Below are positions 1-16,783 of a stretch of 37,486 nt of DNA, piece by piece. Where the stretch lies: the NCBI GenBank assembly GCA_963981005.1, contig CAXCCM010000003.1:1-37486 (forward strand). Reading direction: 5' to 3'. The position numbers and the translations under genes are program-made. The first letter of the stretch is position 1. Every line of letters begins with the position of its first letter. The stretch is from an uncultured bacterium (GTDB lineage: Bacteria > Cloacimonadota > Cloacimonadia > Cloacimonadales > TCS61). The notes below the pieces were generated by a model. It had not been told where the DNA came from. It worked only from the letters and a program-made list of their open reading frames with translations, and did not search any database.

Positions 1-1
1 A

Positions 2-841
2 TTTCTAGCAGAAGATGGCGTGCGACATGTGCATCACAGTAAGCTAGAATTGGCTGTAATAGGTCACTTACACATAATGCTTACCCTAATTGGAATTGCC
101 ACAACACTGCTTATAGGACGCTGGTTTAATTGGAAAGGAATTACTCATAAAATTGGAATTCCATCAATAATCTGGGGAACGATAATTATTACAATTGGTG
201 TATGGGCGGTAGTACCATATCAGTTATATGCACACACAATAATCTATGTGGGTGCTGTATTCTCTATGTTTGGAGCGCTGATGTTGGTTATATTCGGCTG
301 GGGTAAGCTTATAAAAGAAGGAACAAAGGATATAACAAGACCTAATTTCTTCCAAAAAATAAAAGCACTACTTTCTGATTCGTTGAAATTTGGAACACTC
401 TGGCAGATGGTTTTCATGAATTTTTGTGTGAGTGGAATTGGAATCTTTATGGCAGTTAAACTCGAAGAGATCTTCAGAGAAATTCCTTTCAGAGAAGAAC
501 GAATTACTCTTACCGGACATTGGCATATTTTATCCGTTCTCACTGCAACTATCATTTTAATGTATATCGTTTCCAAAATTTTTCCATTGAAGAAGAAGAT
601 CGGGAATTTATACGGGTGGGTAATTATACTTGCTTCCGATCTGGCTTTTGCCATGATCACGATATTCAGTATTAAACGATTGTGGGTTATAGAAGAAGCA
701 CAGCAAACTTTGGTGAATCAACTTCACATATTCAGTGAAATTGGACTTGGTTTACTATTAACATCATTGGGCATTTATATGGTTGTTAGATTAGTTGACT
801 TCCTGAAAAATGGAAAAGCAAATGCTGAGATTGGGGAGTAG
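2..841 (+). CDS. 5'-truncated His-rich polytopic membrane protein, divergent heme-copper oxidase/NOR subunit I-like (C-terminal ~7 helices)
   Basis: The frame is open from base 2 (FLAEDGVRHVHHSKLELAVIGHLH...), so the gene likely starts upstream of the window. About 7 hydrophobic segments, with IGHLH and TGHWH four helices apart, resembling the cbb3 helix X IGHVH motif. Upstream of ctaB. The CDS is secure; the family call is inference. Confidence 0.55.
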   Translation, partial: FLAEDGVRHVHHSKLELAVIGHLHIMLTLIGIATTLLIGRWFNWKGITHKIGIPSIIWGTIIITIGVWAVVPYQLYAHTIIYVGAVFSMFGALMLVIFGWGKLIKEGTKDITRPNFFQKIKALLSDSLKFGTLWQMVFMNFCVSGIGIFMAVKLEEIFREIPFREERITLTGHWHILSVLTATIILMYIVSKIFPLKKKIGNLYGWVIILASDLAFAMITIFSIKRLWVIEEAQQTLVNQLHIFSEIGLGLLLTSLGIYMVVRLVDFLKNGKANAEIGE

Positions 842-1783
842 ATGATGAAAATAATAATAAATATCTCTATAATAATTACGGGTCTATTTCTAATGATAAG
901 TTGTAGTGAAATCCCAGAAGATATACATCCTGATACAGTTTCCATGAATTTAACCGTTAATGAAAATGATTGGGTTCTTGTAGAAAAAGGAGAATTCATT
1001 TCCGGCTTGAATGAGAATGAAAATGAAGTTCCTTACGATTATGAAATTATGGTTACTGAAGTTACTTATTCACAATATGCTGAATATCTTAATTCTGCTA
1101 TAAAAGAAAACCTAATCGAAATTGAAGATGGTTTTATAAAAGGTTCTTATAAAGGTGATGCATTCCATAAAATGCGTCATGAATTTGAGATCCTTGAAGG
1201 AAATTACATCTATTATAATTTGAATGGTATTAAATGCCGCATGAAATACGATGATGGGATTTTCTCGGTTAGAGAAGGGTACGGGAAATTTCCAGTGGCT
1301 TATGTTAGCTGGTTTGGTGCAAATGCGTATTCTTTATATTACCGATATAATTTGGCATCTTTAGAAGAATGGGAAAAAGCTGCACGTGGTGGTGATAACA
1401 GAACTTTCCCTTGGGGTTTCGAAGAGCCAACACCAGATATTGCCAACTATCATCACAGCAAAGATCCTTTCGATCATGAGAATGCTGCAACACCTGTTGG
1501 ATTTTACAATGGTGAAAAACACGGAGATTTTCAAACAAGAAATAACAAAAGCGTTTATGGCAGCTATGATATGGCAGGAAATGTAGCTGAATGGATTGGG
1601 ACAGTTCAACATGGAAGTCATCTGAGATTAATATATGGTGGAAGCTTCATGGAGTATGGTTACAATCTACGTTCATTTACAGAAAATTCTTCAGTTCCGG
1701 AATACTGCAGTTTCCAAGTTGGATTCCGCTGTACGCGAAAAGTAGATGAAGAGAGTGTTGAGAGTGATCAAATTTTACATTAA
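842..1783 (+). CDS. FGE-sulfatase (SUMF1/NirV/EgtB-like) domain lipoprotein
   Basis: Lipobox LMISC. Family motifs EVTYSQY, PVAYVSW, EWEKAARG, FPWG, DMAGNVAEW, GGSF and GFRC. No FGE catalytic Cys pair after GGSF. Confidence 0.85.
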   Translation: MMKIIINISIIITGLFLMISCSEIPEDIHPDTVSMNLTVNENDWVLVEKGEFISGLNENENEVPYDYEIMVTEVTYSQYAEYLNSAIKENLIEIEDGFIKGSYKGDAFHKMRHEFEILEGNYIYYNLNGIKCRMKYDDGIFSVREGYGKFPVAYVSWFGANAYSLYYRYNLASLEEWEKAARGGDNRTFPWGFEEPTPDIANYHHSKDPFDHENAATPVGFYNGEKHGDFQTRNNKSVYGSYDMAGNVAEWIGTVQHGSHLRLIYGGSFMEYGYNLRSFTENSSVPEYCSFQVGFRCTRKVDEESVESDQILH

Positions 1784-2600
1784 GCTTCTTAAAACTCCTC
1801 AAACAGGGCTTTTACTGTTTACTTCGATTGCTGGTTATTTGGCATCATCGGGACAATTGTCTGTTGAATTAGTTATTCTGGCAATGGTTGGAATGGTGTT
1901 AGCAATAGGTGGTGCAACTGCACTGAATATGTCTTTTGATGAAGATATTGATGCAAAGATGAACCGCACTAAGAATCGTCCGATTCCCAAAGGGATTCTT
2001 ACATCTAAAAAAGCGCTTATTTTTGGATGGTTATTGATAATTATTGGCATGATTATTTCCTATTGGATTCAGCCATTATACAGCCTAATTGTTGCTTTTG
2101 GGGTTTTCTTTAACTACATAATTTATACTTTATGGCTCAAAAGAAGATCTGCTTTATCAATAATTTTTGGTGGTTTAGCTGGAGGAATGCCGATTTTGGC
2201 AGGAAGAGTTTTGGCAACGGGAAGCATTGACCTAATTGGAATTTTAATGTCACTCGGGATATTGTTTTGGATTCCAACCCACATACTTTCATTGGCAATG
2301 AATCACTCAGAGGATTATAAAATTGCAGGAGTTCCAACTATTCCTAATAAATTTGGATTTACCAGAACCAGATACTTTATAACAACTGCAAACATCATTG
2401 CTGTTCTTATTTTTTTATATATTTGTGTGATGCTGGAAATCTCGAAAACAGGAATTGTGATACTGCTTTTTGGAAGTGTTGTTTTAATTGCAACTTCGCT
2501 GATAATTATTTTCAAACCTTCCGAAAGAGCAAATTTTTATTTATTCAAGTTCGCATCATTGTATATGGTTATTGCAATGATAATTATGATGATGAAATAA
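1746..2600 (+). CDS. ctaB: protoheme IX farnesyltransferase (heme O synthase)
   Basis: UbiA-family motif NMSFDEDIDAKMNRTKNRPIP, plus YTLWLKRR, GGLAGGMP and WIPTH...DYKIAGVP. Multi-TM. Confidence 0.93.
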   Translation: MKRVLRVIKFYIKLLKTPQTGLLLFTSIAGYLASSGQLSVELVILAMVGMVLAIGGATALNMSFDEDIDAKMNRTKNRPIPKGILTSKKALIFGWLLIIIGMIISYWIQPLYSLIVAFGVFFNYIIYTLWLKRRSALSIIFGGLAGGMPILAGRVLATGSIDLIGILMSLGILFWIPTHILSLAMNHSEDYKIAGVPTIPNKFGFTRTRYFITTANIIAVLIFLYICVMLEISKTGIVILLFGSVVLIATSLIIIFKPSERANFYLFKFASLYMVIAMIIMMMK

Positions 2601-2621
2601 TGAAGGCAGAAGCCTAATTAT

Positions 2622-2710
2622 AAAACAAAGAGATCGTTTGCAAGAGCAAGCCGATTCTTAAAAAAAACTGAATCGTTTGCAAGCAAGCCGATTCTTAAAA
2701 GGAGAGAAAA
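2622..2710 (+). repeat. tandem duplicated hairpin element (2 copies) ending in the RBS of the next gene
   Basis: ATCGTTTGCAAGAGCAAGCCGATTCTTAAAA (2633-2663) and AATCGTTTGCAAGCAAGCCGATTCTTAAAA (2671-2700), followed by GGAGAGAAAA ATG. Each copy is self-complementary (ATCG/CGAT, TTGC/GCAA). Confidence 0.85.
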
Positions 2711-3346
2711 ATGTATGAAACAATTAAGGCCATGACCATGTTGGATCGTGGAATTTTGTTGGCAACAGGAATCGTAGCAATTTACATGTTATTCGTACTT
2801 TTCAAAAAGCAAAAGGCAAAGGCAGAAACAGAAAATATTTTCTTCATAATGTCATTTGCTGTTCTATTAGTTGCAGGTTTAATTCTTATTTTTACAAATT
2901 GGGATTCACTACTTTCACCATTTGTGGCAATAGTAGCTGGATTGATCCCATTCGGATTAGCTTTAGGGCTTATCAAGAAGTTTTATCCAGCAAAGTTTAA
3001 ACTTTATCTTATTGTTTTAACTATCGGACTCATCTGGATAGCAGTTGCTAAGATCGGACAGGTAATGTGTAAAGGAAGTATCGCACTTCCATTTTTCCAT
3101 GCAATTGCCGGTCTAACAATTTTCTTCGTACCTATTATGGCTGTTAAAGCTGGTAAAGTTAAACCTGGATTTATCAATGTTACAATTGGTGGAACACTCA
3201 TCGGACTAGGTGGAATCGCACTTGCCTTCATAAAAAATGGCGGACAATTGTTATTCTTCTCACCACTGGTTGTTCTTACAATTCTAGCTCCACTTCTTTT
3301 CCTTACAGCTCTATTCTTTGCACTCGGGCTTACGAAGGGAGAATAG
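2711..3346 (+). CDS. uncharacterised ~7-TM membrane protein
   Basis: GGAG RBS and a highly hydrophobic 211-aa ORF. Single His in FFHAIAGL; Gly-rich GGTLIGLGG. Confidence 0.8.
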   Translation: MYETIKAMTMLDRGILLATGIVAIYMLFVLFKKQKAKAETENIFFIMSFAVLLVAGLILIFTNWDSLLSPFVAIVAGLIPFGLALGLIKKFYPAKFKLYLIVLTIGLIWIAVAKIGQVMCKGSIALPFFHAIAGLTIFFVPIMAVKAGKVKPGFINVTIGGTLIGLGGIALAFIKNGGQLLFFSPLVVLTILAPLLFLTALFFALGLTKGE

Positions 3347-3369
3347 ATTTATAACAAAATCGTAGATTA

Positions 3370-3840
3370 ATGAAAAAACTTATTTATATATATAGCATTG
3401 GAGGAGTTATTGCAATTTTCTCCAGTGCTATTTATCGTTTGTACCCACACGTTAAAGAAAGTATGTCCTTAGAGTTTTCTGCTTTAAATTGGACTGTATT
3501 GGCAGCCTACTTAATAGTAATGATCGTTGGGAAAGGATATTTCGCACTTCATAGAGGATTTGTGCCGAGAGTAATAGTTCGTTCTGAACAAATAATCAGT
3601 AATGGGAATTTGATAGATAAATTATTAGCTCCTCTTTATTGCATGGGCTTTTTTAAGGCTCCAAAAAAAAGAATGATAATTTCTTATTTGATGATATTAT
3701 TCATTATTTCATTTTTGGTTAGTGCTTCAAAAATTGTACAACCTTGGCGAGGAATAATTGATCTGGGCGTGATAGTAGGATTATCTTTAGGAATTATATC
3801 TCTATTATTGTTAGGCTCTAAAAAATTAATTTCCAAATAG
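3370..3840 (+). CDS. uncharacterised membrane protein
   Basis: 156 aa with ~4 hydrophobic segments. Motifs LAPLYCMGFF and QPWRGIIDLG look like a conserved hypothetical family. Confidence 0.75.
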   Translation: MKKLIYIYSIGGVIAIFSSAIYRLYPHVKESMSLEFSALNWTVLAAYLIVMIVGKGYFALHRGFVPRVIVRSEQIISNGNLIDKLLAPLYCMGFFKAPKKRMIISYLMILFIISFLVSASKIVQPWRGIIDLGVIVGLSLGIISLLLLGSKKLISK

Positions 3841-3875
3841 AAAAAGAGCCAAGTTATAATTTACAAACTTGGCTC
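3841..3875 (-). terminator. intrinsic terminator between convergent genes
   Basis: GAGCCAAGTT (3846-3855) / AACTTGGCTC (3866-3875) perfect 10-bp inverted repeat. A5 at 3841-3845 gives a U-tract on the - strand. Confidence 0.75.
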
Positions 3876-3899
3876 AAAGTATCTTAAATTACTTCAATT

Positions 3900-4766
3900 C
3901 TAAAATGCGTAAACTATTCCACCTATATGATAGAAATTTTCCATTTCAGCACTTTTCATATATTTAGTTCGATATGAAATTCCCCAACTTCTATTGAAAT
4001 AAATATTCAACATTCCTGAAGCAATATCATAAGTATCGCTTTCTTGAAGATCAACTTTACAATGATATTTCAATTTCAGATCTATAAAATGATAGAATGT
4101 AGCTTTGAAATTTAATCCTGCTAATGCATAGAAAGTATCATCATCAACGTTATCTTTAATGGAGATCTCAGGAATATATGGACCCATTGGAGGTATGACA
4201 AAATCAATATCTCCTTTAATAACATCCGCTTCTGCTCCTACCCAAGGCATGAATGAGTATTTGATTTTATCACTGCCAAGATAGAAATATTTTCCTCCAC
4301 GAATAAATGGAGCAATAATATTTTGTGATAAACCAAAATCATTTATTGCTGAAGTTTGTGGAGCTGGAGGTGGCGCACCAGTATCAAATGAAAGAGAATC
4401 AGCATCTGTACTCATTTTCAAATATTCAATTCCTGCACCAATAACATATTTACTGTTTTCTTTAACACCTAAGTAATAATCAAAAATGAAATGAGTTCCC
4501 CATAAACTGCTGTAATTCAGATCCTCAGAATTGTATACAAATGCGTTCCATTGATACTTGTCAGTGTCTATGCATTGAAAATAGAGTCCTTTAAATAGTG
4601 AATCATCATTGAATTCTAGATCAAATGATTGATCACCATGTTCCATTGTTCTGCTCATGTCATTATTAATAGTTCCCAAATATGGAGTTACAATTCGAAT
4701 TTTCTCTGCATAAATTGAGCCAACAAATAATAATGAAATTATAAATAATACCAATACTTTTTTCAC
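3900..4766 (-). CDS. putative outer-membrane beta-barrel protein
   Basis: GTG start with GGAG RBS, Sec signal peptide (MKKVLVLFIISLLFVGSIYA), aromatic alternating beta-strand pattern, C-terminal GIVYAF. Confidence 0.7.
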   Translation of the reverse strand: MKKVLVLFIISLLFVGSIYAEKIRIVTPYLGTINNDMSRTMEHGDQSFDLEFNDDSLFKGLYFQCIDTDKYQWNAFVYNSEDLNYSSLWGTHFIFDYYLGVKENSKYVIGAGIEYLKMSTDADSLSFDTGAPPPAPQTSAINDFGLSQNIIAPFIRGGKYFYLGSDKIKYSFMPWVGAEADVIKGDIDFVIPPMGPYIPEISIKDNVDDDTFYALAGLNFKATFYHFIDLKLKYHCKVDLQESDTYDIASGMLNIYFNRSWGISYRTKYMKSAEMENFYHIGGIVYAF

Positions 4767-4839
4767 GTTTTCTACTCTCCTAATTTATATTAACGTATTA
4801 AAATGAAATTTTTTTGAATCTAAAATTCACGTCAATAAA

Positions 4840-5349
4840 TTAAGTGAAAATTATTGAAGCTCCTGCAGATTTTTCATAAAATTGACCTACAGTTAGTACT
4901 TCTTCAACTTGGTCAACCAGATCATCTTTGGTTAGTTTGAACATATCCATTGCCAATTTACAGGCATAGATCTTTCCTCCAGCATCAGAAATCATTTCTA
5001 GAAATTCATCTACAGGTGGTATATCCAGATCTTCCATCTCTTTTTTCATCATCATTGTAGCCATGGGAGAAACACCGGGGATAGCACCCATCCAGGTTGG
5101 AAATGGAGCAGTTATTGGGAATTTCATCATTGGCATAGCTAAGTTTAATGAAGGATTTCCAACTGTAGCAACTTTTAATTTTTTAACCATTTTTTTCATT
5201 ATTGCATTGAGTCCGAAGAAAGTGAAAAATATAGAAGCTTCAATCCCTTCCATTCTGGCACCATTTGCCATTATTAATGCTGGATAAACTTCATCTAATC
5301 CACCTTTTGCACATATTATCGATACTTTTTTGATCTTTCCATTTTCCAT
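4840..5349 (-). CDS. DsrE/DsrF/DrsH-like (DsrE2-type) sulfur-relay protein
   Basis: YPALIMANGA, IFFTFFGL, IYACKLAMDM (conserved Cys). Adjacent to the tusE-like and sqr genes. Confidence 0.88.
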   Translation of the reverse strand: MENGKIKKVSIICAKGGLDEVYPALIMANGARMEGIEASIFFTFFGLNAIMKKMVKKLKVATVGNPSLNLAMPMMKFPITAPFPTWMGAIPGVSPMATMMMKKEMEDLDIPPVDEFLEMISDAGGKIYACKLAMDMFKLTKDDLVDQVEEVLTVGQFYEKSAGASIIFT

Positions 5350-5363
5350 AATATTCTCCTTAT

Positions 5364-5681
5364 TTAGATGCAGCTTTCAGGTTTTTTCAATCCAGCAATT
5401 CTGGATGATTTTTTAAGTGGTCCACCCGGGAAAAGTGTGTATAATTCTTTTGTATCAACAACACCAGATTTCTTCATTTTTCTAATTGAAGGTAAAGCTC
5501 CATTCTCTTTGTAATAATCCTGAAGGTGCTTGATGACTTCCCAATGTCGATCACTCATCTCTTCGATACCTTCTTCAGCTGCAATAACTTCTGCAATCGC
5601 TTCATTCCACTGACCAAAATCAGTAAGGAATCCTTCTTCATTAACATCTACCATGCTTCCTGCAATTTCTTTTGTTGCCAT
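5364..5681 (-). CDS. tusE: TusE/DsrC/DsvC family sulfur carrier (single C-terminal Cys)
   Basis: EEGFL...W, HWEVI, LFPGGP and C-terminal RIAGLKKPESCI. Only the penultimate Cys is present. Confidence 0.88.
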   Translation of the reverse strand: MATKEIAGSMVDVNEEGFLTDFGQWNEAIAEVIAAEEGIEEMSDRHWEVIKHLQDYYKENGALPSIRKMKKSGVVDTKELYTLFPGGPLKKSSRIAGLKKPESCI

Positions 5682-5731
5682 GATTCTCTCCTCTTAAGAG
5701 TCGGTTTGCTTTTGCAAACCGTCTTTATTTT
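5682..5731 (-). repeat. third (inverted) copy of the hairpin+RBS element
   Basis: The - strand reads AAAGACGGTTTGCAAAAGCAAACCGACTCTTAAGAGGAGAGAATC ATG. Perfect stem CGGTTTGC/GCAAACCG (5702-5721). Aligns with 2622-2710. Confidence 0.75.
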
Positions 5732-5732
5732 T

Positions 5733-6965
5733 TTATATTTTCTTTCCTAATTTACTCATTTGTGTTGTAATTCCCGGCATCGGCAATCCCTTAAGAAGCA
5801 TATTCCAATAAATGTATTTGAACGCAAGCTTCCCTATATGATTAATTCTAGTTTCCTTCAACAATGAAAAAGGCCCTACTAAAGGAAGAGGGAATGTTCC
5901 CTCAACTGGCTCTACATCATAATTGAAATCTATTAAGAAAGCTTTACCAAAACCTGATTCAATAAAGCAATTCGCATGTCCGTCGAATTCTTGAACTAGT
6001 TCTTTCTCATTTATAAATTTCATTATGTTCTTAGTTAAAACTTCTGCTTGGAAATGAGCTACTGATCCAGCCTTTGAACTTGGTAGGTCAGTCGCATCTC
6101 CAATTACAAAGATGTTCTCTTTCTTCTTGGATTGTAAAGTATGTTTGTGTGTAGGAACAAAATTGAGATCATCACCAAGTCCAGATCGTTCAATAACATC
6201 ATCTCCCATATTTGTTGGGATGGTTACCAACAGATCATAATTTACTTTTTTCTCATCATAAGATTGAATGAAATTCTCTTGTTCATTCACAAGTTCAACA
6301 TCAAAATCTGAGACCATATTTATTTTCTTATCATCTAAGAGATAACCAAGCACATTAGAGCAGTTCTGCTTTGTAAAAGCTCCTGATAATGGTGTTATGT
6401 AAGTCATTTCAACTTTTTCGCGAATCCCTTTCTTATGAAAGAACGCATCAGCCAACATGATGAATTCCAGCGGGGCAACCGGACATTTAATCGGCATTTC
6501 TGTTAGATGAACAATAAATTTTCCGCCTTCCCATGTTTTGAGTTTATCACGTAAAGCAGTTGCACCTTCAATTGTATAAAAATCAAAAACATTTTTATGC
6601 CAACCTTCATCAGCTAAACCATCAACTTCATCAGGAACGATTTTTGATCCTGTAGCAATGATCAAAATATCATATGATAGATTTGTTCCATCTTTTAGAA
6701 CTACATTATTCTTATCGTGTTCTATAACTTCAATTGCTTTTTCAATGTACTCTACACTTTTTGGAATAAATTGTTTTTTAGTTTTAATCACATCTTTTTC
6801 TGTGTAAGTATCAAATGGAATAAAAAGAAAACCAGGTTGATAATAATGTGTTTTGTGCTGATCAACTACAGTAATCTTCCACTCATTTTTATTCAACTTT
6901 CTATTCAGATGATTTACCATCATAGTACCGGCAGTTCCAGCACCTAAAATTAATAATTTTTTCAT
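5733..6965 (-). CDS. sqr: sulfide:quinone oxidoreductase (type III-like FAD-dependent oxidoreductase)
   Basis: GAGTAG Rossmann motif, HYYQPGFLF, IKCPVAPLE, IGDATDLP, SKAGSVAH and FDGHANCFIE (both redox Cys). Confidence 0.88.
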   Translation of the reverse strand: MKKLLILGAGTAGTMMVNHLNRKLNKNEWKITVVDQHKTHYYQPGFLFIPFDTYTEKDVIKTKKQFIPKSVEYIEKAIEVIEHDKNNVVLKDGTNLSYDILIIATGSKIVPDEVDGLADEGWHKNVFDFYTIEGATALRDKLKTWEGGKFIVHLTEMPIKCPVAPLEFIMLADAFFHKKGIREKVEMTYITPLSGAFTKQNCSNVLGYLLDDKKINMVSDFDVELVNEQENFIQSYDEKKVNYDLLVTIPTNMGDDVIERSGLGDDLNFVPTHKHTLQSKKKENIFVIGDATDLPSSKAGSVAHFQAEVLTKNIMKFINEKELVQEFDGHANCFIESGFGKAFLIDFNYDVEPVEGTFPLPLVGPFSLLKETRINHIGKLAFKYIYWNMLLKGLPMPGITTQMSKLGKKI

Positions 6966-6989
6966 TAACTCTCCATAGATTATATTTTA

Positions 6990-7610
6990 TTATTTTGTTT
7001 TAATAGCTTCGCAAATTAATTGAATCGTGTAGTTATAAAGCTCAACGGGGTTCGTGTTCTCTGTCTCTTGAAGAAAGTAGGGAATTAGACCGGAAAGTTC
7101 TCCCCATAGGATATAAGACAGTTTATCTGAATCAGCATCCGATCTGATGCTTTTATCTTTTTTGCCGTCTTTTATGATTTGTTTGATCATCTCTCTGATC
7201 TGCAAATTTTCTTCATCTATAAATTCTAATACAGGACTCTCAAATTTGCATCCAGCTCTATGCTGTTTATAATTTGAAAATGCAAAAATATAATTGGGAT
7301 ATTTATCGTGGAACTCAAGAAAGGTTGATGAAAGTACTTCGATCTTGTTTAAATTAAGTGTTTTCTTGGAAGTTACTTTCTCGAATTCAGAAGTAATTAC
7401 CTTAAGTCCTTTTAAAACAATAGATAAACATAACTCATTCTTACTTTGAAAATATGTATAAAGTGCACCCTTACTGAATTCGGCTTCTACTGCAATATCA
7501 TCCATTGTTGCATTTTCAAATCCTTTTGACATAAACACTTTTTCTGCTGCAGAAATTATTATATTCTGCCTGAATAAGCGTTCCCTCTCTTTTCTCTCAT
7601 TACTTCCCAA
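6990..7610 (-). CDS. TetR/AcrR family transcriptional regulator
   Basis: AAEKVFMSKGFENATMDDIAVEAEFSKGALYTYFQSK helix-turn-helix. TTG start with GGAG RBS. Confidence 0.93.
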   Translation of the reverse strand: MGSNERKERERLFRQNIIISAAEKVFMSKGFENATMDDIAVEAEFSKGALYTYFQSKNELCLSIVLKGLKVITSEFEKVTSKKTLNLNKIEVLSSTFLEFHDKYPNYIFAFSNYKQHRAGCKFESPVLEFIDEENLQIREMIKQIIKDGKKDKSIRSDADSDKLSYILWGELSGLIPYFLQETENTNPVELYNYTIQLICEAIKTK

Positions 7611-7635
7611 TGCTGACTCCTATTTCTTTTATTGA

Positions 7636-7665
7636 ATTAAAGTCAGAAAAATGACTATCAGTCAA
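7636..7665 (-). promoter_or_regulatory. putative TetR operator overlapping the promoter
   Basis: Palindrome TGACT-ATC-AGTCA (7652-7664) and an extra AGTCA half-site at 7641. On the - strand, TTGACT (7665-7660) is followed 18 nt later by TTTAAT (7641-7636). Confidence 0.5.
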
Positions 7666-7698
7666 AAAGGTCAAGAAAATAATTTGATTTTGAAACAG

Positions 7699-7728
7699 AA
7701 AAAGAGCAAGTGAAGTCACTTGCTCTTT
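7699..7728 (-). terminator. intrinsic terminator of the nrf/ccs operon
   Basis: Perfect 13-bp inverted repeat AAAGAGCAAGTGA-AG-TCACTTGCTCTTT with an A-tract on the left, just downstream of ccsA. Confidence 0.85.
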
Positions 7729-7751
7729 ATAACTGTATTTTTAAGTAATTT

Positions 7752-8549
7752 TTAATAACTATGCATGCTCTGTTTGGCAGAAGGCATATAATCTACACCA
7801 TGCCACCCGATAAGTAACATGAAGAAACAAATCACCAAAAACCACAAAGCTATATATTGTTTTTTGGGATGTCTGTAGCGGAAATGAATATAGGTTAAAT
7901 AACAGAGCCAGCTAACCAGTGCCCATGTCTCTTTCGGGTCCCAAGCCCAATATCCACCCCAAGCCTCTTTCGCCCAAAAAGCACCGAAAGAAATTCCAAA
8001 AGTTGCCATAGCAAATCCAATATATATCAATACGTCAGCCCTAATCAGAAGCGGTTTCAGTGTTGCAGTATCCTTCTTGTAATATAAGTATAAACCTTTT
8101 GCTGCGTACAGAACAGTTGATGCCAAAAGTGCATAAGCAACCATATAAATGATTACATGCGGAACGAACCAGTAACTTTGAAGTGCCGGCATCAAAGTCA
8201 TATCGAAATAATCGGGATGGATCAAGTTTGTGATAAGAAATACTGATGCCATTATTTGCCCATAAATTGCGAACCAATAAGTTTTTAATTTAGTATGAAT
8301 GATAAGAGTGAGTAGAGGGACAATGGTAGCATACCAAAGTCTGGTTTCACCTTTTGTTCGCAAGGGTGGACGTTCCAACAAAAGCCATAATTGTGCAATG
8401 TAAAAGCATAAAATAAGAACCGCTGAAAATGATATTATAACAGCAATATTTTTTAAATATTCTTTTTTACTGGGAATGTAATACAGTGCAGCTGCAACGA
8501 GCCAAAGGGAGATAACAGCTTTTACGATGACATCAAAACTGATATGCAT
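7752..8549 (-). CDS. ccsA: cytochrome c biogenesis (system II) heme lyase subunit CcsA
   Basis: WWD motif WGGYWAWDPKETW, PALQSYWFVPH and C-terminal SMHSY. Confidence 0.92.
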   Translation of the reverse strand: MHISFDVIVKAVISLWLVAAALYYIPSKKEYLKNIAVIISFSAVLILCFYIAQLWLLLERPPLRTKGETRLWYATIVPLLTLIIHTKLKTYWFAIYGQIMASVFLITNLIHPDYFDMTLMPALQSYWFVPHVIIYMVAYALLASTVLYAAKGLYLYYKKDTATLKPLLIRADVLIYIGFAMATFGISFGAFWAKEAWGGYWAWDPKETWALVSWLCYLTYIHFRYRHPKKQYIALWFLVICFFMLLIGWHGVDYMPSAKQSMHSY

Positions 8550-9904
8550 TATTTACTCTCCTTTGGGAATTTTCGGATAGACCACATTAAATAAATAACA
8601 CCAATAAGCAACATGCCGAACCCAACATAAACGAACTTTAACCACGGATCTCGAACAGCTTGTAGAGTGCTTATTCTGAAAGGATCAGTGCTATCTGGAT
8701 TCAACAAAATATAGCGACAATCTGTTTGATACAAATACCAACTTTTGTATTTAAACGGTTTATTAACTTCAATAATTTTTTCAGTTTTCTCACCATCAGG
8801 AGTTAACATTGTCACATAAGAAGCAAATCTCTTTTTACCTGGTTGCCCGATAGTTAAAGAATTATCCCCGATATCAATATATCTTGATGGAAAGAAATAC
8901 TTTAATCTCATGAGCATACGAGCCATCTCAGGAGAATGATCTCTCATGTTACCACATGTTACCCAACTCTCTTTTTCTTCGTTTGTATGTATGTTTTTGG
9001 CTTTCAAATATGCAGCTGACATAAATGCGGGATGATCACAATCCATATCATAAGGAACAAAATCATCTTTGCGGGGAGTTGCAGATTCAAGATATTTTTC
9101 TACAGTAATTTCCCAATCTTCAAAATGGAATGTTCTACCTTCCTCTATAAATCCAGCTTCTTTTTTCAATTCGGTTTTTATAGGGAATCCTAATGAATCA
9201 TAAAACATGATCTCACTTGGATAATTATCGATCTCAAAACGCTTCATCCTTAAAGAAAAGGGAAGATTTACAGTTCGCTTTATGGATTGCTGTCCAGGAA
9301 ATTCTGGTGTATCCATTGCACGAAGTTTATCGAAATAGAATCCTTGATGGGTTGGTGAATCTATAAACAGATCAACGTTATATGTTTCTAAATGACCAAC
9401 AGATAATGAACCGAAGAACAGAATAATAAAGAAGCCAAAATGACTGAGTAAAAAGCCGATATAACGAACCCTAAAATTCATCAGTTTCTTAAAAACAGTA
9501 AAGAAAAGAGATGTACAAACAAATAACAAACTGAATATGTAAGGCCAGCTTGAGATCATGTGAGAAAAGCCAATTTTCTTTAGTAGCAGAATATTTTCAG
9601 CTCCACCCTGCGGGATGAATCCTGCAATAGCAATAAGTATAATGTAAACAACTACCGAAGAAACAGCCATTGTAATACTTGAGAACCAATTTACTAACTT
9701 CTTTAATGGTTTAATGAAATAAACGATAGTCAGAAATGTTAAATAGATTCCAATTAAGAAGATGTTTATTGGAGCGATCGGTTTAGGGAAGCCAGTTCCA
9801 TTAGTAGCAATTTCTAAAGCAAATCCAACAAGAACAAAGCCTACAATTATTATGAAAGTTGGCGCATACCCAAATGGCATGCGCCATAAATTATTTTTTT
9901 GCAT
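8549..9904 (-). CDS. ccsB: cytochrome c biogenesis protein CcsB/ResB
   Basis: N-terminal TMs with GFLLSHFG, a large periplasmic domain, IEVNKPF...YQ and RDPW followed by a TM. Coupled to ccsA. Confidence 0.85.
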   Translation of the reverse strand: MQKNNLWRMPFGYAPTFIIIVGFVLVGFALEIATNGTGFPKPIAPINIFLIGIYLTFLTIVYFIKPLKKLVNWFSSITMAVSSVVVYIILIAIAGFIPQGGAENILLLKKIGFSHMISSWPYIFSLLFVCTSLFFTVFKKLMNFRVRYIGFLLSHFGFFIILFFGSLSVGHLETYNVDLFIDSPTHQGFYFDKLRAMDTPEFPGQQSIKRTVNLPFSLRMKRFEIDNYPSEIMFYDSLGFPIKTELKKEAGFIEEGRTFHFEDWEITVEKYLESATPRKDDFVPYDMDCDHPAFMSAAYLKAKNIHTNEEKESWVTCGNMRDHSPEMARMLMRLKYFFPSRYIDIGDNSLTIGQPGKKRFASYVTMLTPDGEKTEKIIEVNKPFKYKSWYLYQTDCRYILLNPDSTDPFRISTLQAVRDPWLKFVYVGFGMLLIGVIYLMWSIRKFPKESK

Positions 9905-9926
9905 ATAGTTTATCTAATTTATTCCT

Positions 9927-11438
9927 TTATTTGTCCCAGGATTCATGTCTTTTCTTAGCTTCTTCATCCCATTTTGGAGCCATAGTTTTTAGGAAGTTCT
10001 CTTTTTCTTGTTTCAATTTTTCAGCGTTAAGCCCAATAACTTTTTGTACTTTTGCCTTTGTAGAAAGATCAGGAAGTTCAACTTCACCCAAGAATCCATG
10101 TTTAGCTAAAACTTTACTGAGTTCTAATCTGGCCTTTCCGGCTTTATCTATACAGTCAGCTAACAAGTTTGAAACTTGAAGTGGTGCATGGAAAGAAGCT
10201 CCATGACTAGCTACAGAAAAATCCCATCTCCACTGAGATTCACGAATAAGTGTTCTGATGTCTTCTAATTCAGCATCAGTTGCACCTTCTTCCATAGCAG
10301 CTTTTGTTTCAAAGTGAGCTCTTACTAATAGCTCCTCAGCTTTTACTGTAAGTTTTTTTATGGAAGCCTGTCTATCTTTAACAGCTTTTCTTAATTCTTC
10401 TTCTGGTTGTCTGTGGCAAACCTGACAAGTTTTGTCTATATAATCTAATGGACTTGTAACATGATGACTGGAATACTTCATGCCACCACGGCTTTCATAA
10501 GGCATATGACAATCTGCACAAGAAACACCTTGCATTCCATGAGGACCAAGCTGCCATAGCTCCCAGCCAGGGTGTTGTGCTTTATACATCCTTGTTTTAC
10601 TAACTGCATGGATCCAGTCCTTATGTCCTGTTCCATCAGCTCCTCTTTTATTAAGATGCTGTTCCAGGGCATCTGCTGTAATACCTTCTGACCAAGGGAA
10701 TACAAGATAAGGAGCACCTTTCTTTTGTCCATCTAGATGTTTATCAAAATAGTATTCTACATGACACTGAGCACATACAAGAGAACGCATTTCTTGATGA
10801 GTTGCTTCGGTGATATCCTTTCCCGTTAGGGCTTTATATCCTTCTTTAAGAGCTGGGCGAGTTATTGTTAAAGCCATTGTTTCAGGGTCATGACAATCTC
10901 CGCAACCGATAGGATTGATTATCTGTGAACCAAGGTTATCCCATTTTCCACCATCACCACGATAAAACTCAGCAACACCATCTTTACCGTCAACCGCAAG
11001 TTCTTCCATCATTCTTGGAACGTCAGGACTTTTACAAGTCCAGCAGGTAGCAGGCATAGGGCTTCCCTTTTCTTCAGTAGGAGCACCTGTCCGTAAAGTA
11101 TTTCTTGTATCTTCTATTGCATGAATATGACCTCTTGGTTTGTTGTAATCTTTTGCAAAACCGTATCCGGCAAAAAGAACAGAAACATAAGGATTCTCTT
11201 CTAGAATATCTTCTATCTCTCCACCTTCCATTTTTAAGTAAGTTTCATGCTGCTCGGGATATGATTCTCCCCAAACCTCATTTCTTGTTTCCCACTCACC
11301 TAAATCTACAATTGCTTTCTTCATGATCACAGCTTCTGTACGTCTTTCCATTATAGAATTAGCTAGTAACCCCATGAAGAATACGATCACTAAAGTGAAA
11401 ATAAATAAAATCCAGCTTCCGGATTTTCCTTTAAACAT
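9927..11438 (-). CDS. nrfA: pentaheme cytochrome c nitrite reductase (ammonia-forming)
   Basis: CWTCK active-site heme plus CGDCH, CAQCH, CADCH and CQVCH. Also GYGFAKDYNKPRGH, KAQHP and ASHGASFH. Confidence 0.97.
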   Translation of the reverse strand: MFKGKSGSWILFIFTLVIVFFMGLLANSIMERRTEAVIMKKAIVDLGEWETRNEVWGESYPEQHETYLKMEGGEIEDILEENPYVSVLFAGYGFAKDYNKPRGHIHAIEDTRNTLRTGAPTEEKGSPMPATCWTCKSPDVPRMMEELAVDGKDGVAEFYRGDGGKWDNLGSQIINPIGCGDCHDPETMALTITRPALKEGYKALTGKDITEATHQEMRSLVCAQCHVEYYFDKHLDGQKKGAPYLVFPWSEGITADALEQHLNKRGADGTGHKDWIHAVSKTRMYKAQHPGWELWQLGPHGMQGVSCADCHMPYESRGGMKYSSHHVTSPLDYIDKTCQVCHRQPEEELRKAVKDRQASIKKLTVKAEELLVRAHFETKAAMEEGATDAELEDIRTLIRESQWRWDFSVASHGASFHAPLQVSNLLADCIDKAGKARLELSKVLAKHGFLGEVELPDLSTKAKVQKVIGLNAEKLKQEKENFLKTMAPKWDEEAKKRHESWDK

Positions 11439-11459
11439 AGCTTCCTCCCGCTTTGTTGA

Positions 11460-11996
11460 CTATTTCTTTTCTATTATTTTTTTTAACCACGTTGGTGTTG
11501 CGCTATCAATATAAGGCACTTCAGCATTGGGAACAGAAGCCAGGCTTCGTTCTCTTCCGTGAGGAGTAAATCGGTGGCAATCCCAACACTTCTTATTATC
11601 TACGCCCTGTAACATATTAGCATTTTGAGCTACAACATCACTATGGCAATGTATACAGTTTTCTTGAACAACAACTTCACCTGCTTTCTTTATCATAATT
11701 GCTTCAGGTTCTGTTCGTGTAAGGAAAATTGCGGAATGACGCATTCCATCCATAGCCTTGAAGTAGAGTTTATGTGCAAAATTATCATGCGGCAAATGAC
11801 AATCAATACAATTTGCAACTTTTTGATGTGAACTACGAGACCAACTTGCATATTGTGTATCCATCACATGACAATTCATGCATGTTTCAGGTTCATTAGA
11901 TGCGTAGGATGCAAAATTGAAAACATATAAAATGAAAAATCCAAACCCGAAAATTATTCCGGCAAGAATTGGTAAAATTATCTTTTTTCTATCCAT
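11460..11996 (-). CDS. nrfH: tetraheme quinol dehydrogenase NrfH
   Basis: N-terminal TM, CMNCHVM, CIDCH, CIHCH and CWDCH. Immediately upstream of nrfA. Confidence 0.95.
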   Translation of the reverse strand: MDRKKIILPILAGIIFGFGFFILYVFNFASYASNEPETCMNCHVMDTQYASWSRSSHQKVANCIDCHLPHDNFAHKLYFKAMDGMRHSAIFLTRTEPEAIMIKKAGEVVVQENCIHCHSDVVAQNANMLQGVDNKKCWDCHRFTPHGRERSLASVPNAEVPYIDSATPTWLKKIIEKK

Positions 11997-12231: not shown

Positions 12232-13566
12232 ATGAAAGTTAAAAAGTTGCATCAAGGTTATGATATAAAATTAGTTGGTGAAACCGTAAGAACTATCGAG
12301 GCTACTCCATTCCCCAAAAAAGTTGCTGTCAAACCAACTGATTTTGAAGGATTGAAGCCAAAATTACTTATTAAGACTGGTGATGAAGTAAAAGTTGGAA
12401 CACCATTAGTATTTCATAAAACTAACGAGCAAATAAAAATTATATCTCACGTAAGTGGAAAGATCTCAGAAATAATTCGTGGAGAAAGAAGAGTTATTGA
12501 AGCTATTGTTATTGAACCTGATGAAAAGCAGGTTCATGATGATTTGAAGATTGACTCAAATAATCTTACAAAAGAATCAATAATTGAAGCGCTTCTCAAT
12601 TCAGGATTATTTTTAAACTTTATTCAACGACCTTTCAATAAAATTGCAAATCCATCAGATATTCCGCGTGATATTTTTATTTCAGCAATGGACACAGCAC
12701 CTTTAGCTGCAGAAGCGGCCTTAATATTACAAGGAAATGAGAATTCCTTTCAAAAAGGTTTAGATATTCTTTCACAATTAACTTCAGGAAAAGTAAGATT
12801 ATCTTTCAAACCTGAAGATAATGTTTTTGTAGATTTTAAGAACTGCGAATTACACAATTTCAGTGGCAAGCATCCTGCAGGTAATGTTGGAGTTCATATA
12901 CATCACATTTCACCAATTAAAAATGCACATGATAATGTTTGGAGCTGTTCTGTTCAGGCAGTTATTCAAATTGGTAAATTATTTGAAACCGGTAAAATTA
13001 AACCGGAAATTATTGTAAAAGTAGCTGGAAGTGCAGTTGAAAAGAGATATTACTATAAAACAGTAATTGGTGCAGAAGTTTCTTCTTTCCTAGGAAAAGT
13101 AGATGAGGATTCCAGAATAATTTCGGGAGATGTGCTCACGGGAAAGAAAATCGAACTAGAAGGGTTTGTTGGCTTCAAAGATAACCTGATCACAGTGATC
13201 CCGGAAGCAACAGAACCTGAATTTTTGGGATGGCTAAGCCCAGGATTTTCCAAACGAAGCTGGTGGAAGACTTTTGTAGCGGCTATTATTACACCAAAGA
13301 AAAAATACAAAGCAGATACAAATATTGGTGGTGGTAACCGCTCACTAGTTATCAACAGCATTTACGAAGAAGTTGTTCCAATGGATATTTTGCCGAGTTA
13401 CCTTATTAAAAGCATTTTAGCAGAAGATATTGAGGAAATGGAAGCATTGGGGATTTATGAAGTTGCTGAAGAAGATTTTGCATTATGTGAATACATTTGT
13501 CCTTCCAAAACGGAATTTCAACAGATCATTCGAAAAGGTTTAGATCTAATAGAAAAAGAAGGTTAA
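12232..13566 (+). CDS. nqrA: Na(+)-translocating NADH:quinone reductase subunit A
   Basis: QRPF, DTAPLA, GKHPAGNVGVHIH and EEDFALCEYICPSK. Confidence 0.95.
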   Translation: MKVKKLHQGYDIKLVGETVRTIEATPFPKKVAVKPTDFEGLKPKLLIKTGDEVKVGTPLVFHKTNEQIKIISHVSGKISEIIRGERRVIEAIVIEPDEKQVHDDLKIDSNNLTKESIIEALLNSGLFLNFIQRPFNKIANPSDIPRDIFISAMDTAPLAAEAALILQGNENSFQKGLDILSQLTSGKVRLSFKPEDNVFVDFKNCELHNFSGKHPAGNVGVHIHHISPIKNAHDNVWSCSVQAVIQIGKLFETGKIKPEIIVKVAGSAVEKRYYYKTVIGAEVSSFLGKVDEDSRIISGDVLTGKKIELEGFVGFKDNLITVIPEATEPEFLGWLSPGFSKRSWWKTFVAAIITPKKKYKADTNIGGGNRSLVINSIYEEVVPMDILPSYLIKSILAEDIEEMEALGIYEVAEEDFALCEYICPSKTEFQQIIRKGLDLIEKEG

Positions 13567-13572
13567 TAATAT

Positions 13573-15502: not shown

Positions 15503-16106
15503 GAAAACTTTTTTCGAACCGATCGTTCACAATAATCCTGTTACTATTCAAATCTTAGGAATATGTTCTGCATTAGCGGTTACGACCCAATTAAAACCAT
15601 CTTTAGTTATGGGTATTGCAGTAACAATTATTATTGCACTTTCAAATCTGGTTGTTTCTCTGATTCGTTCGTTTATTCCAAAAAATATTAGAATCATTGT
15701 GGAGATGACAGTAATAGCTACGATGGTAATTTTGGTTGATCAAATCTTACGAGCATATCTTTTTGATGTTTCCAAACAGCTCTCAGTTTTTGTGGGACTG
15801 ATAATTACCAACTGTATTGTTCTTGGACGTTTAGAAGGTTTTGCTCTCACAAATAAACCAGTTCCTTCGATATTAGATGGTTTTGGAAATGGAATTGGAT
15901 ATTCATTGATATTGGTGGCAGTTGGTGCAACCAGAGAGATTTTCGGTGCGGGAACACTGCTTGGATTCCAAGTAATTCCACAATCCCTATATGATGTTGG
16001 ATATGTAAATAATGGATTGATGGTTTTGGCTCCGGGAGCTTTTTTCTTACTGGGTTTAATTGTTTGGCTTCAGCGAGCAGTTACCGGACATTATGAGGAA
16101 GAATAA
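15492..16106 (+). CDS. nqrD: Na(+)-NQR subunit D
   Basis: NNPVTIQILGICSALAVT and SVFVGLIITNCIVLGR. Confidence 0.96.
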   Translation: MSNKKTFFEPIVHNNPVTIQILGICSALAVTTQLKPSLVMGIAVTIIIALSNLVVSLIRSFIPKNIRIIVEMTVIATMVILVDQILRAYLFDVSKQLSVFVGLIITNCIVLGRLEGFALTNKPVPSILDGFGNGIGYSLILVAVGATREIFGAGTLLGFQVIPQSLYDVGYVNNGLMVLAPGAFFLLGLIVWLQRAVTGHYEEE

Positions 16107-16773: not shown

Positions 16774-16783
16774 GTTTGATGAT

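What the first reader, a model, noticed from the sequence alone, without database searches (positions are those of the whole stretch)
2..3840. Candidate novel heme-O respiratory module: divergent HCO-like protein + non-catalytic FGE lipoprotein + CtaB + two unknown membrane proteins
Seen: a tightly packed + strand operon in which heme O synthase has none of the usual partners in view (no CuA subunit II, CtaA, cyoABCD or ccoOP). Its neighbours are a His-rich polytopic protein, an FGE-fold lipoprotein and two unknown membrane proteins. Established: heme O/A is known mainly as a cofactor of heme-copper oxidase superfamily enzymes. Inference: the first gene is the heme O client and the operon encodes an uncharacterised quinol-oxidising O2 or NO reductase, or another heme-O protein, with its own assembly factors. 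Only the 3' part of the operon is visible.
Basis: partly seen in the sequence, partly recalled or inferred. Interest (0 to 1): 0.85.

Follow-up and report, generated by a model that had tools for sequence, protein, structure and literature searches.

The report
Undescribed heme-O membrane complex in anaerobes
A marine anaerobe that lacks every known heme-O-using oxidase carries a conserved operon pairing its own heme O synthase with an unclassified histidine-rich 12-helix membrane protein and a periplasmic cap protein, which probably form a new respiratory or detoxifying enzyme.

Summary
The five + strand genes exist as described. Orthologous loci (92% identical) show that gene A is a 482-aa, 12-helix protein and the first gene of the operon; no oxidase subunits lie upstream. 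A, the FGE-fold lipoprotein B, the heme O synthase-like C and the 211-aa membrane protein D travel together across at least ten phyla (B 73 of 73 loci, C 64 of 72, D 42 of 50). A and B are fused in 10 of 80 loci. Gene E is lineage-specific.

In the window's kin, CtaB occurs in exactly the 4 of 41 genomes that carry A. Those four show no COX1, cytochrome bd or CtaA.

A matches no Pfam, NCBIfam or PDB sequence. It is an internal triplication of a 4-helix unit (E 6e-10). Seven conserved histidines sit at the periplasmic face. The unit weakly resembles helices IX-XII of heme-copper oxidase subunit I, with GHxH aligned on the heme-ligand HxH (probability up to 79%, controls below 3%).

Neighbours in other phyla (CRP/FNR, Rrf2, a flavodiiron protein, a divergent COX1) point to O2 or NO.

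Best reading: a new quinol-linked heme-O reductase complex.

The parts
2..841 (+). Gene A, C-terminal 279 aa of a 482-aa protein with 12 hydrophobic helices, built as three tandem 4-helix repeats. The window holds the end of helix 5's loop through helix 12, including the GHLH, AH and GHWH motifs.
   Evidence: One search gives the ORF. Searches give the full-length orthologue P0001 at 92% identity. One search shows 12 hydrophobic segments with 31 K+R in the inside loops against 12 in the outside loops. Searches give the invariant histidines. One search shows the internal triplication. Searches find no family or PDB match.
842..1783 (+). Gene B, a periplasmic FGE-fold lipoprotein without the FGE cysteine pair. 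It is an obligate partner of A.
   Evidence: PF03781 E 3.4e-24. All NCBIfam FGE-type equivalogs score far below their cut-offs. B is present next to A in 73 of 73 loci and fused to A in 10 of 80. The fused forms keep the signal peptide as a 13th helix.
1746..2600 (+). Gene C, a heme O synthase-like prenyltransferase of a divergent subfamily that is linked to A.
   Evidence: TIGR01473 222.9 bits against a cut-off of 210.3; PF01040 E 6.7e-54. It is found in the same 4 of 41 kin genomes as A. It lies within 6 kb on the same strand in 64 of 72 loci. It is separated from canonical CtaB by a branch with SH-aLRT 100.
2630..2700 (.). C-D intergenic spacer holding two tandem copies of a roughly 30-nt motif. 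Each copy contains a 6-bp inverted repeat. Its role is unknown.
   Evidence: Sequence read. Similar stretches lie on two other contigs of the genome. No Rfam family matches in 1..8000.
2711..3346 (+). Gene D, a 211-aa polytopic membrane protein with one invariant histidine (H130), an invariant P80 and a glycine-rich motif. It is a conserved fourth member of the module.
   Evidence: No family match. Present in 42 of 50 loci with enough flank: upstream of A in 22, downstream in 20, and two or more copies in 24.
3370..3840 (+). Gene E, a 156-aa membrane protein. It is a lineage-specific add-on in Cloacimonadota.
   Evidence: No family match. ORFs of matching size (156 and 152 aa) follow D in G011 and G021; they were not compared with E here. 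Found in 1 of 80 loci from other genomes.

Best explanation
The operon encodes a previously undescribed inner-membrane complex. Its core, A, is a 12-helix protein made of three tandem 4-helix repeats. A places seven conserved histidines (H71, H127, H225, H227, H281, H376, H378) and conserved Arg and Glu residues at the periplasmic membrane boundary. B is a redox-inert FGE-fold lipoprotein that caps that face. C is a dedicated, deeply divergent heme O synthase that supplies farnesylated heme to A. D is a small polytopic subunit or assembly factor. Inferred mechanism: menaquinol reduces bis-His low-spin heme(s) in A; electrons pass to a five-coordinate farnesylated heme, possibly next to a His-bound metal; O2 or NO is reduced there. 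The role is detoxification or micro-oxic/nitrosative respiration in an otherwise anaerobic chain. Shown: the genes, their co-inheritance, the A-B fusion, the lack of any known heme O client, the triplication and the histidine pattern. Inferred: heme binding by A, quinol as the donor, and O2 or NO as the substrate.
For: Module and co-inheritance. A relatives occur in 584 species genomes. Across 80 loci from at least ten phyla, B is present in 73 of 73, C in 64 of 72, D in 42 of 50, and all four genes in 41 of 50. FGE is the only fusion partner found for A.

Client logic. CtaB and A occur in the same 4 of 41 kin genomes. COX1 was found in 0 of 4, cytochrome bd in 0 of 4 and CtaA in 0 of 5. In 4 of 5 genomes from other phyla the only CtaB lies in the A operon. 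A-linked CtaBs (65 rows) split from 26 canonical CtaBs with SH-aLRT 100.

Architecture. A has 12 hydrophobic segments with an N-in/C-in charge bias. The invariant histidines all lie at the outer ends of even-numbered helices. Internal repeats: R2-R3 E 5.9e-10, R1-R3 1.7e-5, R1-R2 3.1e-4, against reversed controls of 0.018-0.16.

HCO likeness. Whole protein against 31 COX1 sequences: P 4.9e-4, controls 0.07-0.47. Repeats against HCO helices IX-XII: 3.1e-4 and 1.3e-3, with GHxH aligned on the HxH heme ligands. Pooled repeats: 3.5e-5 and 1.7e-5, probability 72-79%, reversed controls 0.03-0.08. In the ESM Atlas the third neighbouring cluster is auto-named 'Cytochrome oxidase subunit I profile domain-containing protein' (scores 0.91 and 0.90).

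Context. CRP/FNR regulators lie in 25 of 80 loci and Rrf2 regulators in 8. A divergent A sits just downstream of a flavodiiron protein and a hemerythrin-PAS protein. In another genome A-B-C lies just downstream of a divergent COX1 and two CRP/FNR genes. In the window the operon sits beside nrfHA, nqr, a MenA-like gene and a flavodiiron protein gene.
Against: No sequence method places A in the HCO superfamily. Pfam gave no match at E up to 10, though the tool notes that HMMER's filters drop most matches above about 0.1. A profile search against PDB sequences returned 0 hits. A phmmer search of 1.84 billion representatives returned 242 hits, and no link to HCO showed up: the listed full-length hits align as one family with A, and the library itself carries no names.

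The hhalign signal did not grow with a more diverse HCO set: P 5.5e-4 to 7.6e-3, and nothing against four NOR-type sequences. Two different alignment registers appear. The HH pair of HCO helix VII is absent. No cupredoxin or cytochrome c subunit is present.

C scores only just above its cut-off and sits on a very long branch, so its product may not be classical heme O. A divergent A homologue has no B, C or D nearby. Three of 5 carriers from other phyla do have a COX1. The four key genomes are 84-92% complete. No fold and no activity was tested.
Confidence: 0.45

Rival explanations
1. A is not the end user of the heme. It is a heme-O-processing or heme-handling protein, functionally like heme A synthase CtaA: each 4-helix repeat holds a heme between histidines on its 2nd and 4th helices. 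The operon would then make or deliver a modified farnesylated heme for a client encoded elsewhere.
For: The 4-helix repeats carry histidines on helices 2 and 4 in repeats 1 and 2 (H71/H127 and H227/H281). This resembles the two-bundle, four-histidine layout of CtaA, which is recalled and not from a call. ctaA-ctaB adjacency is common in canonical operons; fused CtaA-CtaB frames appear.
Against: hhalign of A or its repeats against 11 CtaA sequences gives P 0.03-0.5, within the range of the reversed controls. PF02628 gives no match. No candidate client exists in the four kin genomes. The tight, sometimes covalent, pairing with a periplasmic domain is not expected of a biosynthetic enzyme.
Confidence: 0.15
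2. C is a paralogue that prenylates something other than heme B. A-B would then be a histidine-rich metal (Cu, Fe or Zn) transporter or a periplasm-facing oxidoreductase that does not use heme O.
For: A-linked CtaBs score 206-228 bits around the 210.3 cut-off, while canonical CtaBs score 274-351 bits. A branch of about 5.5 changes per site separates the two groups. The FGE fold is known for Cu(I) or Fe chemistry in true FGE and EgtB (recalled; abstracts seen in the listing).
Against: The three best NCBIfam matches of C are all heme o synthase models (E 7e-66, 6e-56, 1e-38). The next family stands at 1.8e-23. Paired HxH motifs inside helices are typical heme ligands in HCO. B lacks the metal-binding cysteine pair and has only one conserved cysteine.
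Confidence: 0.15
3. Ordinary case: C serves a canonical oxidase that is simply missing from the incomplete assemblies, and A, B and D are unrelated neighbours.
For: The genomes are draft MAGs at 84-92% completeness. Three of 5 carriers in other phyla do encode COX1.
Against: COX1, CydA and CtaA were all missed in four independent assemblies. CtaB tracks A exactly, 4 of 41 in both searches. A-B-C synteny holds across phyla. Genomes with both systems carry a second, canonical CtaB.
Confidence: 0.05

Closest known systems
Heme-copper oxidoreductase catalytic subunit I (COX1/CyoB/CcoN/NorB, PF00115)
   Same: Both have twelve helices with N and C termini inside. Histidine ligands sit at the outer third of helices 2, 6 and 10. 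Both have an HxH motif, preceded by a small residue, on a helix that aligns with HCO helix X. Both show internal 4-helix repeats: my HCO alignment also gives units I-IV against IX-XII at E 1.2e-6. The pseudo-threefold arrangement of HCO subunit I is recalled. Both are associated with a heme O synthase gene.
   Different: A gives no significant profile match. It has no HH pair on helix 7. It has HxH twice, plus single histidines at helices 4 and 8. Its triplication is still visible in the sequence. Its partner is an FGE-fold lipoprotein rather than a cupredoxin or cytochrome c subunit.
cyoABCDE-type operons (cytochrome bo3 quinol oxidase encoded together with its heme O synthase CyoE)
   Same: The heme O synthase is encoded in the same operon as its presumed client. 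No heme A synthase is present. The likely donor is a quinol; nqr and a MenA-like gene lie in the window.
   Different: There are no CyoA, CyoB, CyoC or CyoD homologues. The synthase belongs to a separate deep branch.
Heme A synthase CtaA/Cox15 (PF02628)
   Same: Both have tandem 4-helix units with histidines on the 2nd and 4th helices near the outer face. The CtaA layout is recalled. Both are genetically linked to CtaB.
   Different: A has three units, not two. There is no profile similarity and no Pfam match.
Non-catalytic FGE-fold proteins (GldK/PorK, PvdO and similar; PF03781)
   Same: B has the FGE fold consensus without the FGE cysteine pair and is a lipoprotein. Its weak best NCBIfam hit is GldK (E 1.9e-8; 34 bits against a cut-off of 350).
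   Different: B is tied to, and sometimes fused with, a polytopic histidine-rich protein. It has a family-specific conserved His-Glu pair (H112, E113).
NnrS (PF05940), a putative heme-copper membrane protein of NO-stress regulons
   Same: Both are 12-helix proteins of similar size; the view that NnrS is linked to NO or O2 stress is recalled, not from a call.
   Different: There is no Pfam match. hhalign against two NnrS sequences gives P 0.3-0.6.

Membership tests
Heme-copper oxidoreductase subunit I (PF00115) | Significant match to the COX1 profile or to solved HCO chains | tested here: not met
   No PF00115 hit for P0001 at E up to 10, nor for any of the 35 family members at E up to 1. The profile search against PDB sequences returned 0 hits. 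hhalign gives at best 79% probability, for one 4-helix unit only.
Heme-copper oxidoreductase subunit I (PF00115) | Six histidine ligands: helix II H, helix VI H, helix VII HH, helix X HxH | tested here: inconclusive
   A has H on helix 2, HxH on helices 6 and 10, and H at the start of helices 4 and 8, with no HH pair. The HxH motifs align with the helix X HxH. The HCO ligand list itself is recalled; the motifs in real HCO sequences were seen.
Heme-copper oxidoreductase subunit I (PF00115) | HCO fold (12-helix core in three four-helix arcs around two hemes and CuB or FeB) | not testable with these tools
The ESM Atlas holds no model of these proteins.
Heme-copper oxidoreductase subunit I (PF00115) | Partner subunit II (cupredoxin or cytochrome c type) in the operon | tested here: not met
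   The operon partners are an FGE-fold protein, CtaB and membrane proteins without any family.
Heme O synthase CtaB/CyoE (TIGR01473) | Score at or above the curated equivalog cut-off | tested here: met
   222.9 bits against 210.3 for the window's C. Orthologues in kin score 216-221 bits. Two A-linked copies in other phyla fall just below the cut-off, at 205.9 and 207.5 bits.
Heme O synthase CtaB/CyoE (TIGR01473) | Groups with canonical, oxidase-linked CtaB in a tree | tested here: not met
   65 A-linked rows and 26 canonical Chloroflexota rows sit on opposite sides of a branch with SH-aLRT 100 and lengths 3.13 + 2.38. This is a quick tree. Three canonical rows and the outgroup dropped out, and L126 was left out.
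Heme O synthase CtaB/CyoE (TIGR01473) | Farnesylation of heme B | not testable with these tools
   This needs HPLC/MS of hemes from an expressing host.
Formylglycine-generating enzyme (PF03781, catalytic FGE) | FGE-sulfatase domain | tested here: met
   E 3.4e-24 covering 253 of 255 profile positions.
Formylglycine-generating enzyme (PF03781, catalytic FGE) | Copper-binding cysteine pair after the GGS motif | tested here: not met
   The stretch after GGS in B holds no cysteine, and the only conserved cysteine is in the terminal GFRC. The position of the catalytic pair is recalled.
Heme A synthase CtaA/Cox15 (PF02628) | Profile similarity | tested here: not met
   No Pfam hit. hhalign gives P 0.03-0.5 against reversed controls of 0.13-0.72.
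NnrS (PF05940) | Profile similarity | tested here: not met
   No Pfam hit. hhalign gives P 0.31-0.64, using only two NnrS sequences.

The most novel reading that the evidence does not exclude
Family A is a surviving near-symmetric relative of the ancestor of heme-copper oxidase subunit I: a 4-helix heme-binding unit triplicated into a 12-helix ring that already used farnesylated heme. It now works in strict anaerobes as an O2- or NO-reducing quinol oxidase with a periplasmic FGE-fold cap in place of subunit II. That would date heme O and the HCO architecture before the split into oxygen and NO reductases, and would give a tractable model of how the superfamily arose.
Probability: 0.15. Interest if true: 0.95.

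Novelty: categorically new. Interest (0 to 1): 0.8.

Why it matters
Heme O and heme A are treated as hallmarks of heme-copper oxidases and hence of aerobic or micro-aerobic life. Here a dedicated heme O synthase travels with an unclassified, highly conserved membrane protein. That protein is 55-65% identical between phyla, with more than 3100 clusters in the protein database and at least 584 species genomes. Its carriers are lineages generally regarded as anaerobic (recalled, not tested here): Cloacimonadota, Anaerolineales, Aminicenantes, Desulfobulbales, Marinimicrobia, Ignavibacteria, KSB1 and Spirochaetota.

If the protein is the heme O client, genome-based predictions of oxygen or NO metabolism are missing an enzyme class, and ctaB can no longer be read as a proxy for an HCO. 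The clearly visible 3 x 4-helix triplication, together with a weak likeness to HCO helices IX-XII, also makes the origin of the HCO fold testable by structure.

Tried and rejected

Sequence routes that gave nothing:
- phmmer and hmmsearch against PDB sequences.
- Pfam on 35 family members.
- A profile search with 15 divergent members: 20 hits, all unnamed or 'hypothetical', none carrying PF00115.
- A search for longer forms: only 2 hits, both A-FGE fusions.
- Rfam on window 1..8000: 0 matches.

CtaA-like and NnrS-like homology were considered and not supported. Enlarging the HCO profile with 10 divergent HCOs did not strengthen the signal. Global hhalign of A against HCO gave only 4.9% probability.

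Literature. Seven full-text searches found no paper describing this gene set. I saw passages of PMC5317091 and PMC11214002; neither mentions an FGE partner or this family. Supplements were closed, and those of PMC11214002 may list further HCO-like families. Subscription journals are not covered, so 'not in print' holds only for these searches.

RNA evidence. Short contigs from three metatranscriptome runs match parts of A, B/C and D without mismatch. The tool warns that DNA can be present in such libraries, so this is only a hint of transcription. Stretches without cover mean nothing.

Full report
**What is in the window.** The window is the first 37.5 kb of contig C3 of a 291-contig MAG that is 85% complete. 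A near-identical kin contig is labelled as an uncultured Cloacimonadota bacterium. Seawater metagenomes hold the same DNA. Five + strand ORFs fill 2..3840:
- A, 2..841, open at the 5' end.
- B, 842..1783.
- C, 1746..2600.
- D, 2711..3346.
- E, 3370..3840.

The next gene is convergent. B is an FGE-sulfatase domain protein (PF03781, E 3.4e-24) with a lipoprotein-type leader. C reaches the curated heme o synthase equivalog (TIGR01473, 222.9 bits against 210.3). A, D and E match nothing in Pfam or NCBIfam.

**The missing 5' part.** Three kin genomes carry A at 91-92% identity as a 477-482 aa frame. The gene upstream differs between them: a 1403-aa C25 peptidase with a T9SS tail in G002, and an AcrB-type pump in G021. 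In G002 and G011 the upstream gene ends in a strong hairpin with a T run. An AT-rich spacer follows, with a conserved TTGAC-containing stretch and a ribosome-binding site before the ATG of A. A is therefore the first gene of the operon, and no oxidase subunit lies upstream.

**Is CtaB really orphaned?** Among 41 genomes of the window's order, A was found in 4. TIGR01473 above its cut-off was found in the same 4. In those four genomes (84-92% complete):
- COX1 PF00115 was found in 0 of 4.
- Cytochrome bd subunit I was found in 0 of 4.
- CtaA was found in 0 of 5, the fifth being a Geobacteraceae carrier.

The controls for each family responded in 6-9 of 14 reference genomes. In five carriers from other phyla COX1 is present in 3 and not found in 2. 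In 4 of the 5 the only CtaB lies inside the A operon; the fifth has a second copy (coordinates compared).

**Co-occurrence.** Eighty loci were kept. They come from Cloacimonadota, Bacteroidia, Spirochaetota, Desulfobulbales, Desulfuromonadales/Geobacteraceae, Marinimicrobia, Aminicenantes, Clostridia, many Anaerolineales/Chloroflexota, Ignavibacteria, KSB1, Caldithrix, Dehalococcoidales and Symbiobacteriaceae. Counting only loci with enough flank:
- B is present in 73 of 73. It is fused to A in 10 of 80 and separate in 63.
- C lies within 6 kb on the same strand in 64 of 72.
- D is present in 42 of 50. It lies upstream of A in 22 and downstream in 20, and 24 loci hold two or more D-like ORFs.
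- All four genes are present in 41 of 50.
- E was found only in the Cloacimonadota locus.

In the fused proteins the leader of B survives as a 13th helix, still followed by a lipobox-like Cys. This places A's C terminus inside and the FGE domain outside. The only fusion partner found for A, in both the near-length and the longer-length searches, is the FGE domain.

**The A family.**
- Size. More than 3109 clusters at 90% identity match P0001, at 55-65% identity between phyla. An exhaustive phmmer run over 1.84 billion representatives gives only 242 hits; the full-length ones align as one family with A, and no link to HCO showed up. A divergent wing at 22-40% identity reaches archaea, including a Caldarchaeum record.
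- Topology. Hydropathy gives 12 segments, with 31 Lys+Arg in the loops predicted inside against 12 outside.
- Conserved residues. Across 66 sequences H225, H227, H281, H376 and H378 are invariant. H71 and H127 are present in 63 of 66. R65, E207, R211, R362, E369 and R370 are nearly invariant. All lie at the periplasmic ends of helices 2, 4, 6, 8 and 10 or in the loops just before them.

**Internal triplication.** Profile-profile alignment of residues 1-160, 165-312 and 325-475 gave:
- R2-R3: E 5.9e-10, probability 96.6%.
- R1-R3: E 1.7e-5, probability 78.8%.
- R1-R2: E 3.1e-4, probability 39.6%.
- Reversed controls: 0.018-0.16.

The alignments equate H71, H227 and H378. They also equate H225 with H376, and H127 with H281. 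A is therefore three copies of a 4-helix unit with histidines on its 2nd and 4th helices.

**Is it HCO-like?** By membership rules it is not, since there is no COX1 profile match. I then built an alignment of 31 COX1 proteins from Chloroflexota genomes, leaving out the unpublished G083.
- Whole-length local hhalign gave P 4.9e-4 and probability 32%. Nulls were 0.21-0.38 for reversed profiles and 0.07-0.47 against the C, D and B families.
- Unit by unit, only HCO helices IX-XII respond: R2 3.1e-4, R3 1.3e-3, R1 0.061. The six comparisons with the other two units gave 0.13-0.48.
- In both responding cases GH-x-H lies exactly on the helix X H-x-H.
- Pooling A's repeats raises this to 3.5e-5 (72%) and 1.7e-5 (79%), with reversed controls of 0.03-0.08.
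- Adding ten divergent HCOs keeps the same target region but does not improve the score (5.5e-4 to 2.2e-3). Four NOR-type sequences alone give nothing.
- The HCO alignment itself shows units I-IV against IX-XII at E 1.2e-6. This fits the pseudo-threefold arrangement of subunit I, which I recall from the first crystal structures and did not verify here.
- The ESM Atlas lists as third neighbour a cluster auto-named 'Cytochrome oxidase subunit I profile domain-containing protein' (scores 0.91 and 0.90). Such scores arise by chance in up to 1 in 10 cases.
- CtaA (P 0.03-0.5) and NnrS (P 0.3-0.6) give no signal.

My reading is that a distant relation of the repeat unit to the HCO IX-XII unit is plausible, at roughly 40%. 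It is not established, and the fold is untested.

**The synthase.** In a sample of 61 Chloroflexota genomes most CtaB matches score 274-351 bits, and eight score 211-240. Of those eight:
- Five lie next to A.
- One genome has a divergent A on another contig.
- In two genomes A was not found with this query.

A quick maximum-likelihood tree of 91 rows puts 65 A-linked rows and 26 canonical rows on opposite sides of a branch with SH-aLRT 100 and lengths 3.13 + 2.38. Three canonical rows and the outgroup fell out at the HMM-trimming step. C is therefore a distinct, old lineage that moves with A. Its three best family matches are all heme o synthase models, but its exact product is not shown.

**B and D.** B keeps the FGE-fold consensus, including the WEKAARGG, YDMxGNV, GGS and GFRC blocks. 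It has no cysteine where the copper-binding pair sits in true FGE (position recalled), and it has a family-specific conserved His-Glu pair. D has invariant H130, P80 and a glycine-rich motif. Its role is inferred only from synteny.

**Functional context.**
- Across the 80 loci the recurring non-core neighbours are CRP/FNR regulators (25 loci), TetR (10), Rrf2 (8), a NapH-like polyferredoxin (8) and several unknown small membrane proteins (28, 22, 14 and 13 loci).
- Five Aminicenantes loci carry a DUF2249/DUF1858 protein.
- A 40%-identical A homologue sits directly downstream of a flavodiiron protein and a DUF438-hemerythrin-PAS protein, without B, C or D nearby.
- In another Chloroflexota genome two CRP/FNR genes, a divergent COX1 (208 bits), a D fragment, A, B and C lie in one row.
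- In the window itself the operon adjoins DsrE2, DsrC/TusE, a type III SQR, TetR, nrfH-nrfA-resB-ccsB, nqrA-F, a MenA-like gene, a polyprenyl diphosphate synthase, Fpg and a flavodiiron protein.

This is the neighbourhood of a quinone-linked anaerobic chain that has to cope with O2 and with NO from nitrite reduction.

**Expression hint.** Three metatranscriptome runs from three studies hold short contigs identical to parts of A, B/C and D. The tool cautions that DNA may be present in such libraries.

**Verdict.**
- The module is real, old, mobile and undescribed in the searched literature.
- The best-supported mechanism is a quinol-linked, heme-O-bearing reductase of O2 or NO. It would be built on a triplicated 4-helix histidine-rich core, with an FGE-fold periplasmic cap.
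- My confidence by step: the conserved four-gene complex about 0.95; A as the heme O client about 0.6; distant HCO kinship about 0.4; O2 or NO reduction about 0.35.
- Rivals are a heme-processing role, a non-heme substrate for C, and, unlikely, a missed canonical oxidase.

Noticed in passing
window 2630-2700: Two tandem copies of a roughly 30-nt motif lie in the C-D spacer. Each copy holds a 6-bp inverted repeat. Similar stretches (76-82% identity) lie on two other contigs of the same genome (G000:C2:36394-36494 and C5:11269-11323).
   Followed up: partly
L091-L123 (Chloroflexota COX1 loci): Within heme-copper oxidase subunit I itself, helices I-IV and IX-XII align at hhalign E 1.2e-6 (probability 91%). 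The helix II heme histidine falls on the first histidine of the helix X HxH. This is an internal repeat signal in the sequence.
   Followed up: partly
L165, L166, L167, L169: These Chloroflexota ORFs of 490-540 aa hit PF00115 only weakly (48-88 bits) and contain no HH or HxH motif. They are HCO-like proteins that appear to lack the metal ligands.
   Followed up: no
window 4840-11996 (- strand): This stretch holds DsrE2, DsrC/TusE, a type III sulfide:quinone reductase, TetR and an nrfH-nrfA-resB-ccsB nitrite-ammonification cluster. The SQR is a complete 410-aa frame that matches the 'selenoprotein subtype' model at 643 bits.
   Followed up: partly
window 12232-23193 (+ strand): This stretch holds Na+-NQR nqrA-F, a MenA-like prenyltransferase, a polyprenyl diphosphate synthase, Fpg and a flavodiiron protein. 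Together with the minus-strand genes it forms a quinone-linked respiratory and stress island.
   Followed up: partly
L157:6360-10350 (- strand): A divergent A homologue (40% identity, 446 aa) lies directly downstream of a flavodiiron protein and a DUF438-hemerythrin-PAS protein. No FGE, CtaB or D gene lies within 7 kb.
   Followed up: partly
L156:312-8831 (+ strand): One row of genes on this strand reads: CRP/FNR, an unknown 265-aa protein, CRP/FNR, an unknown 169-aa protein, a divergent COX1 (208 bits), a D-like fragment, A, B and CtaB.
   Followed up: partly
window 3900-4766 (- strand): A 288-aa secreted protein with no family match is convergent with the operon. A similar-sized ORF occupies the same position in the G011 and G021 loci.
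   Followed up: no
L008:8330-12541: In kin genome G002 the gene upstream of A is a 1403-aa C25 (gingipain-type) peptidase with a T9SS C-terminal sorting domain.
   Followed up: no
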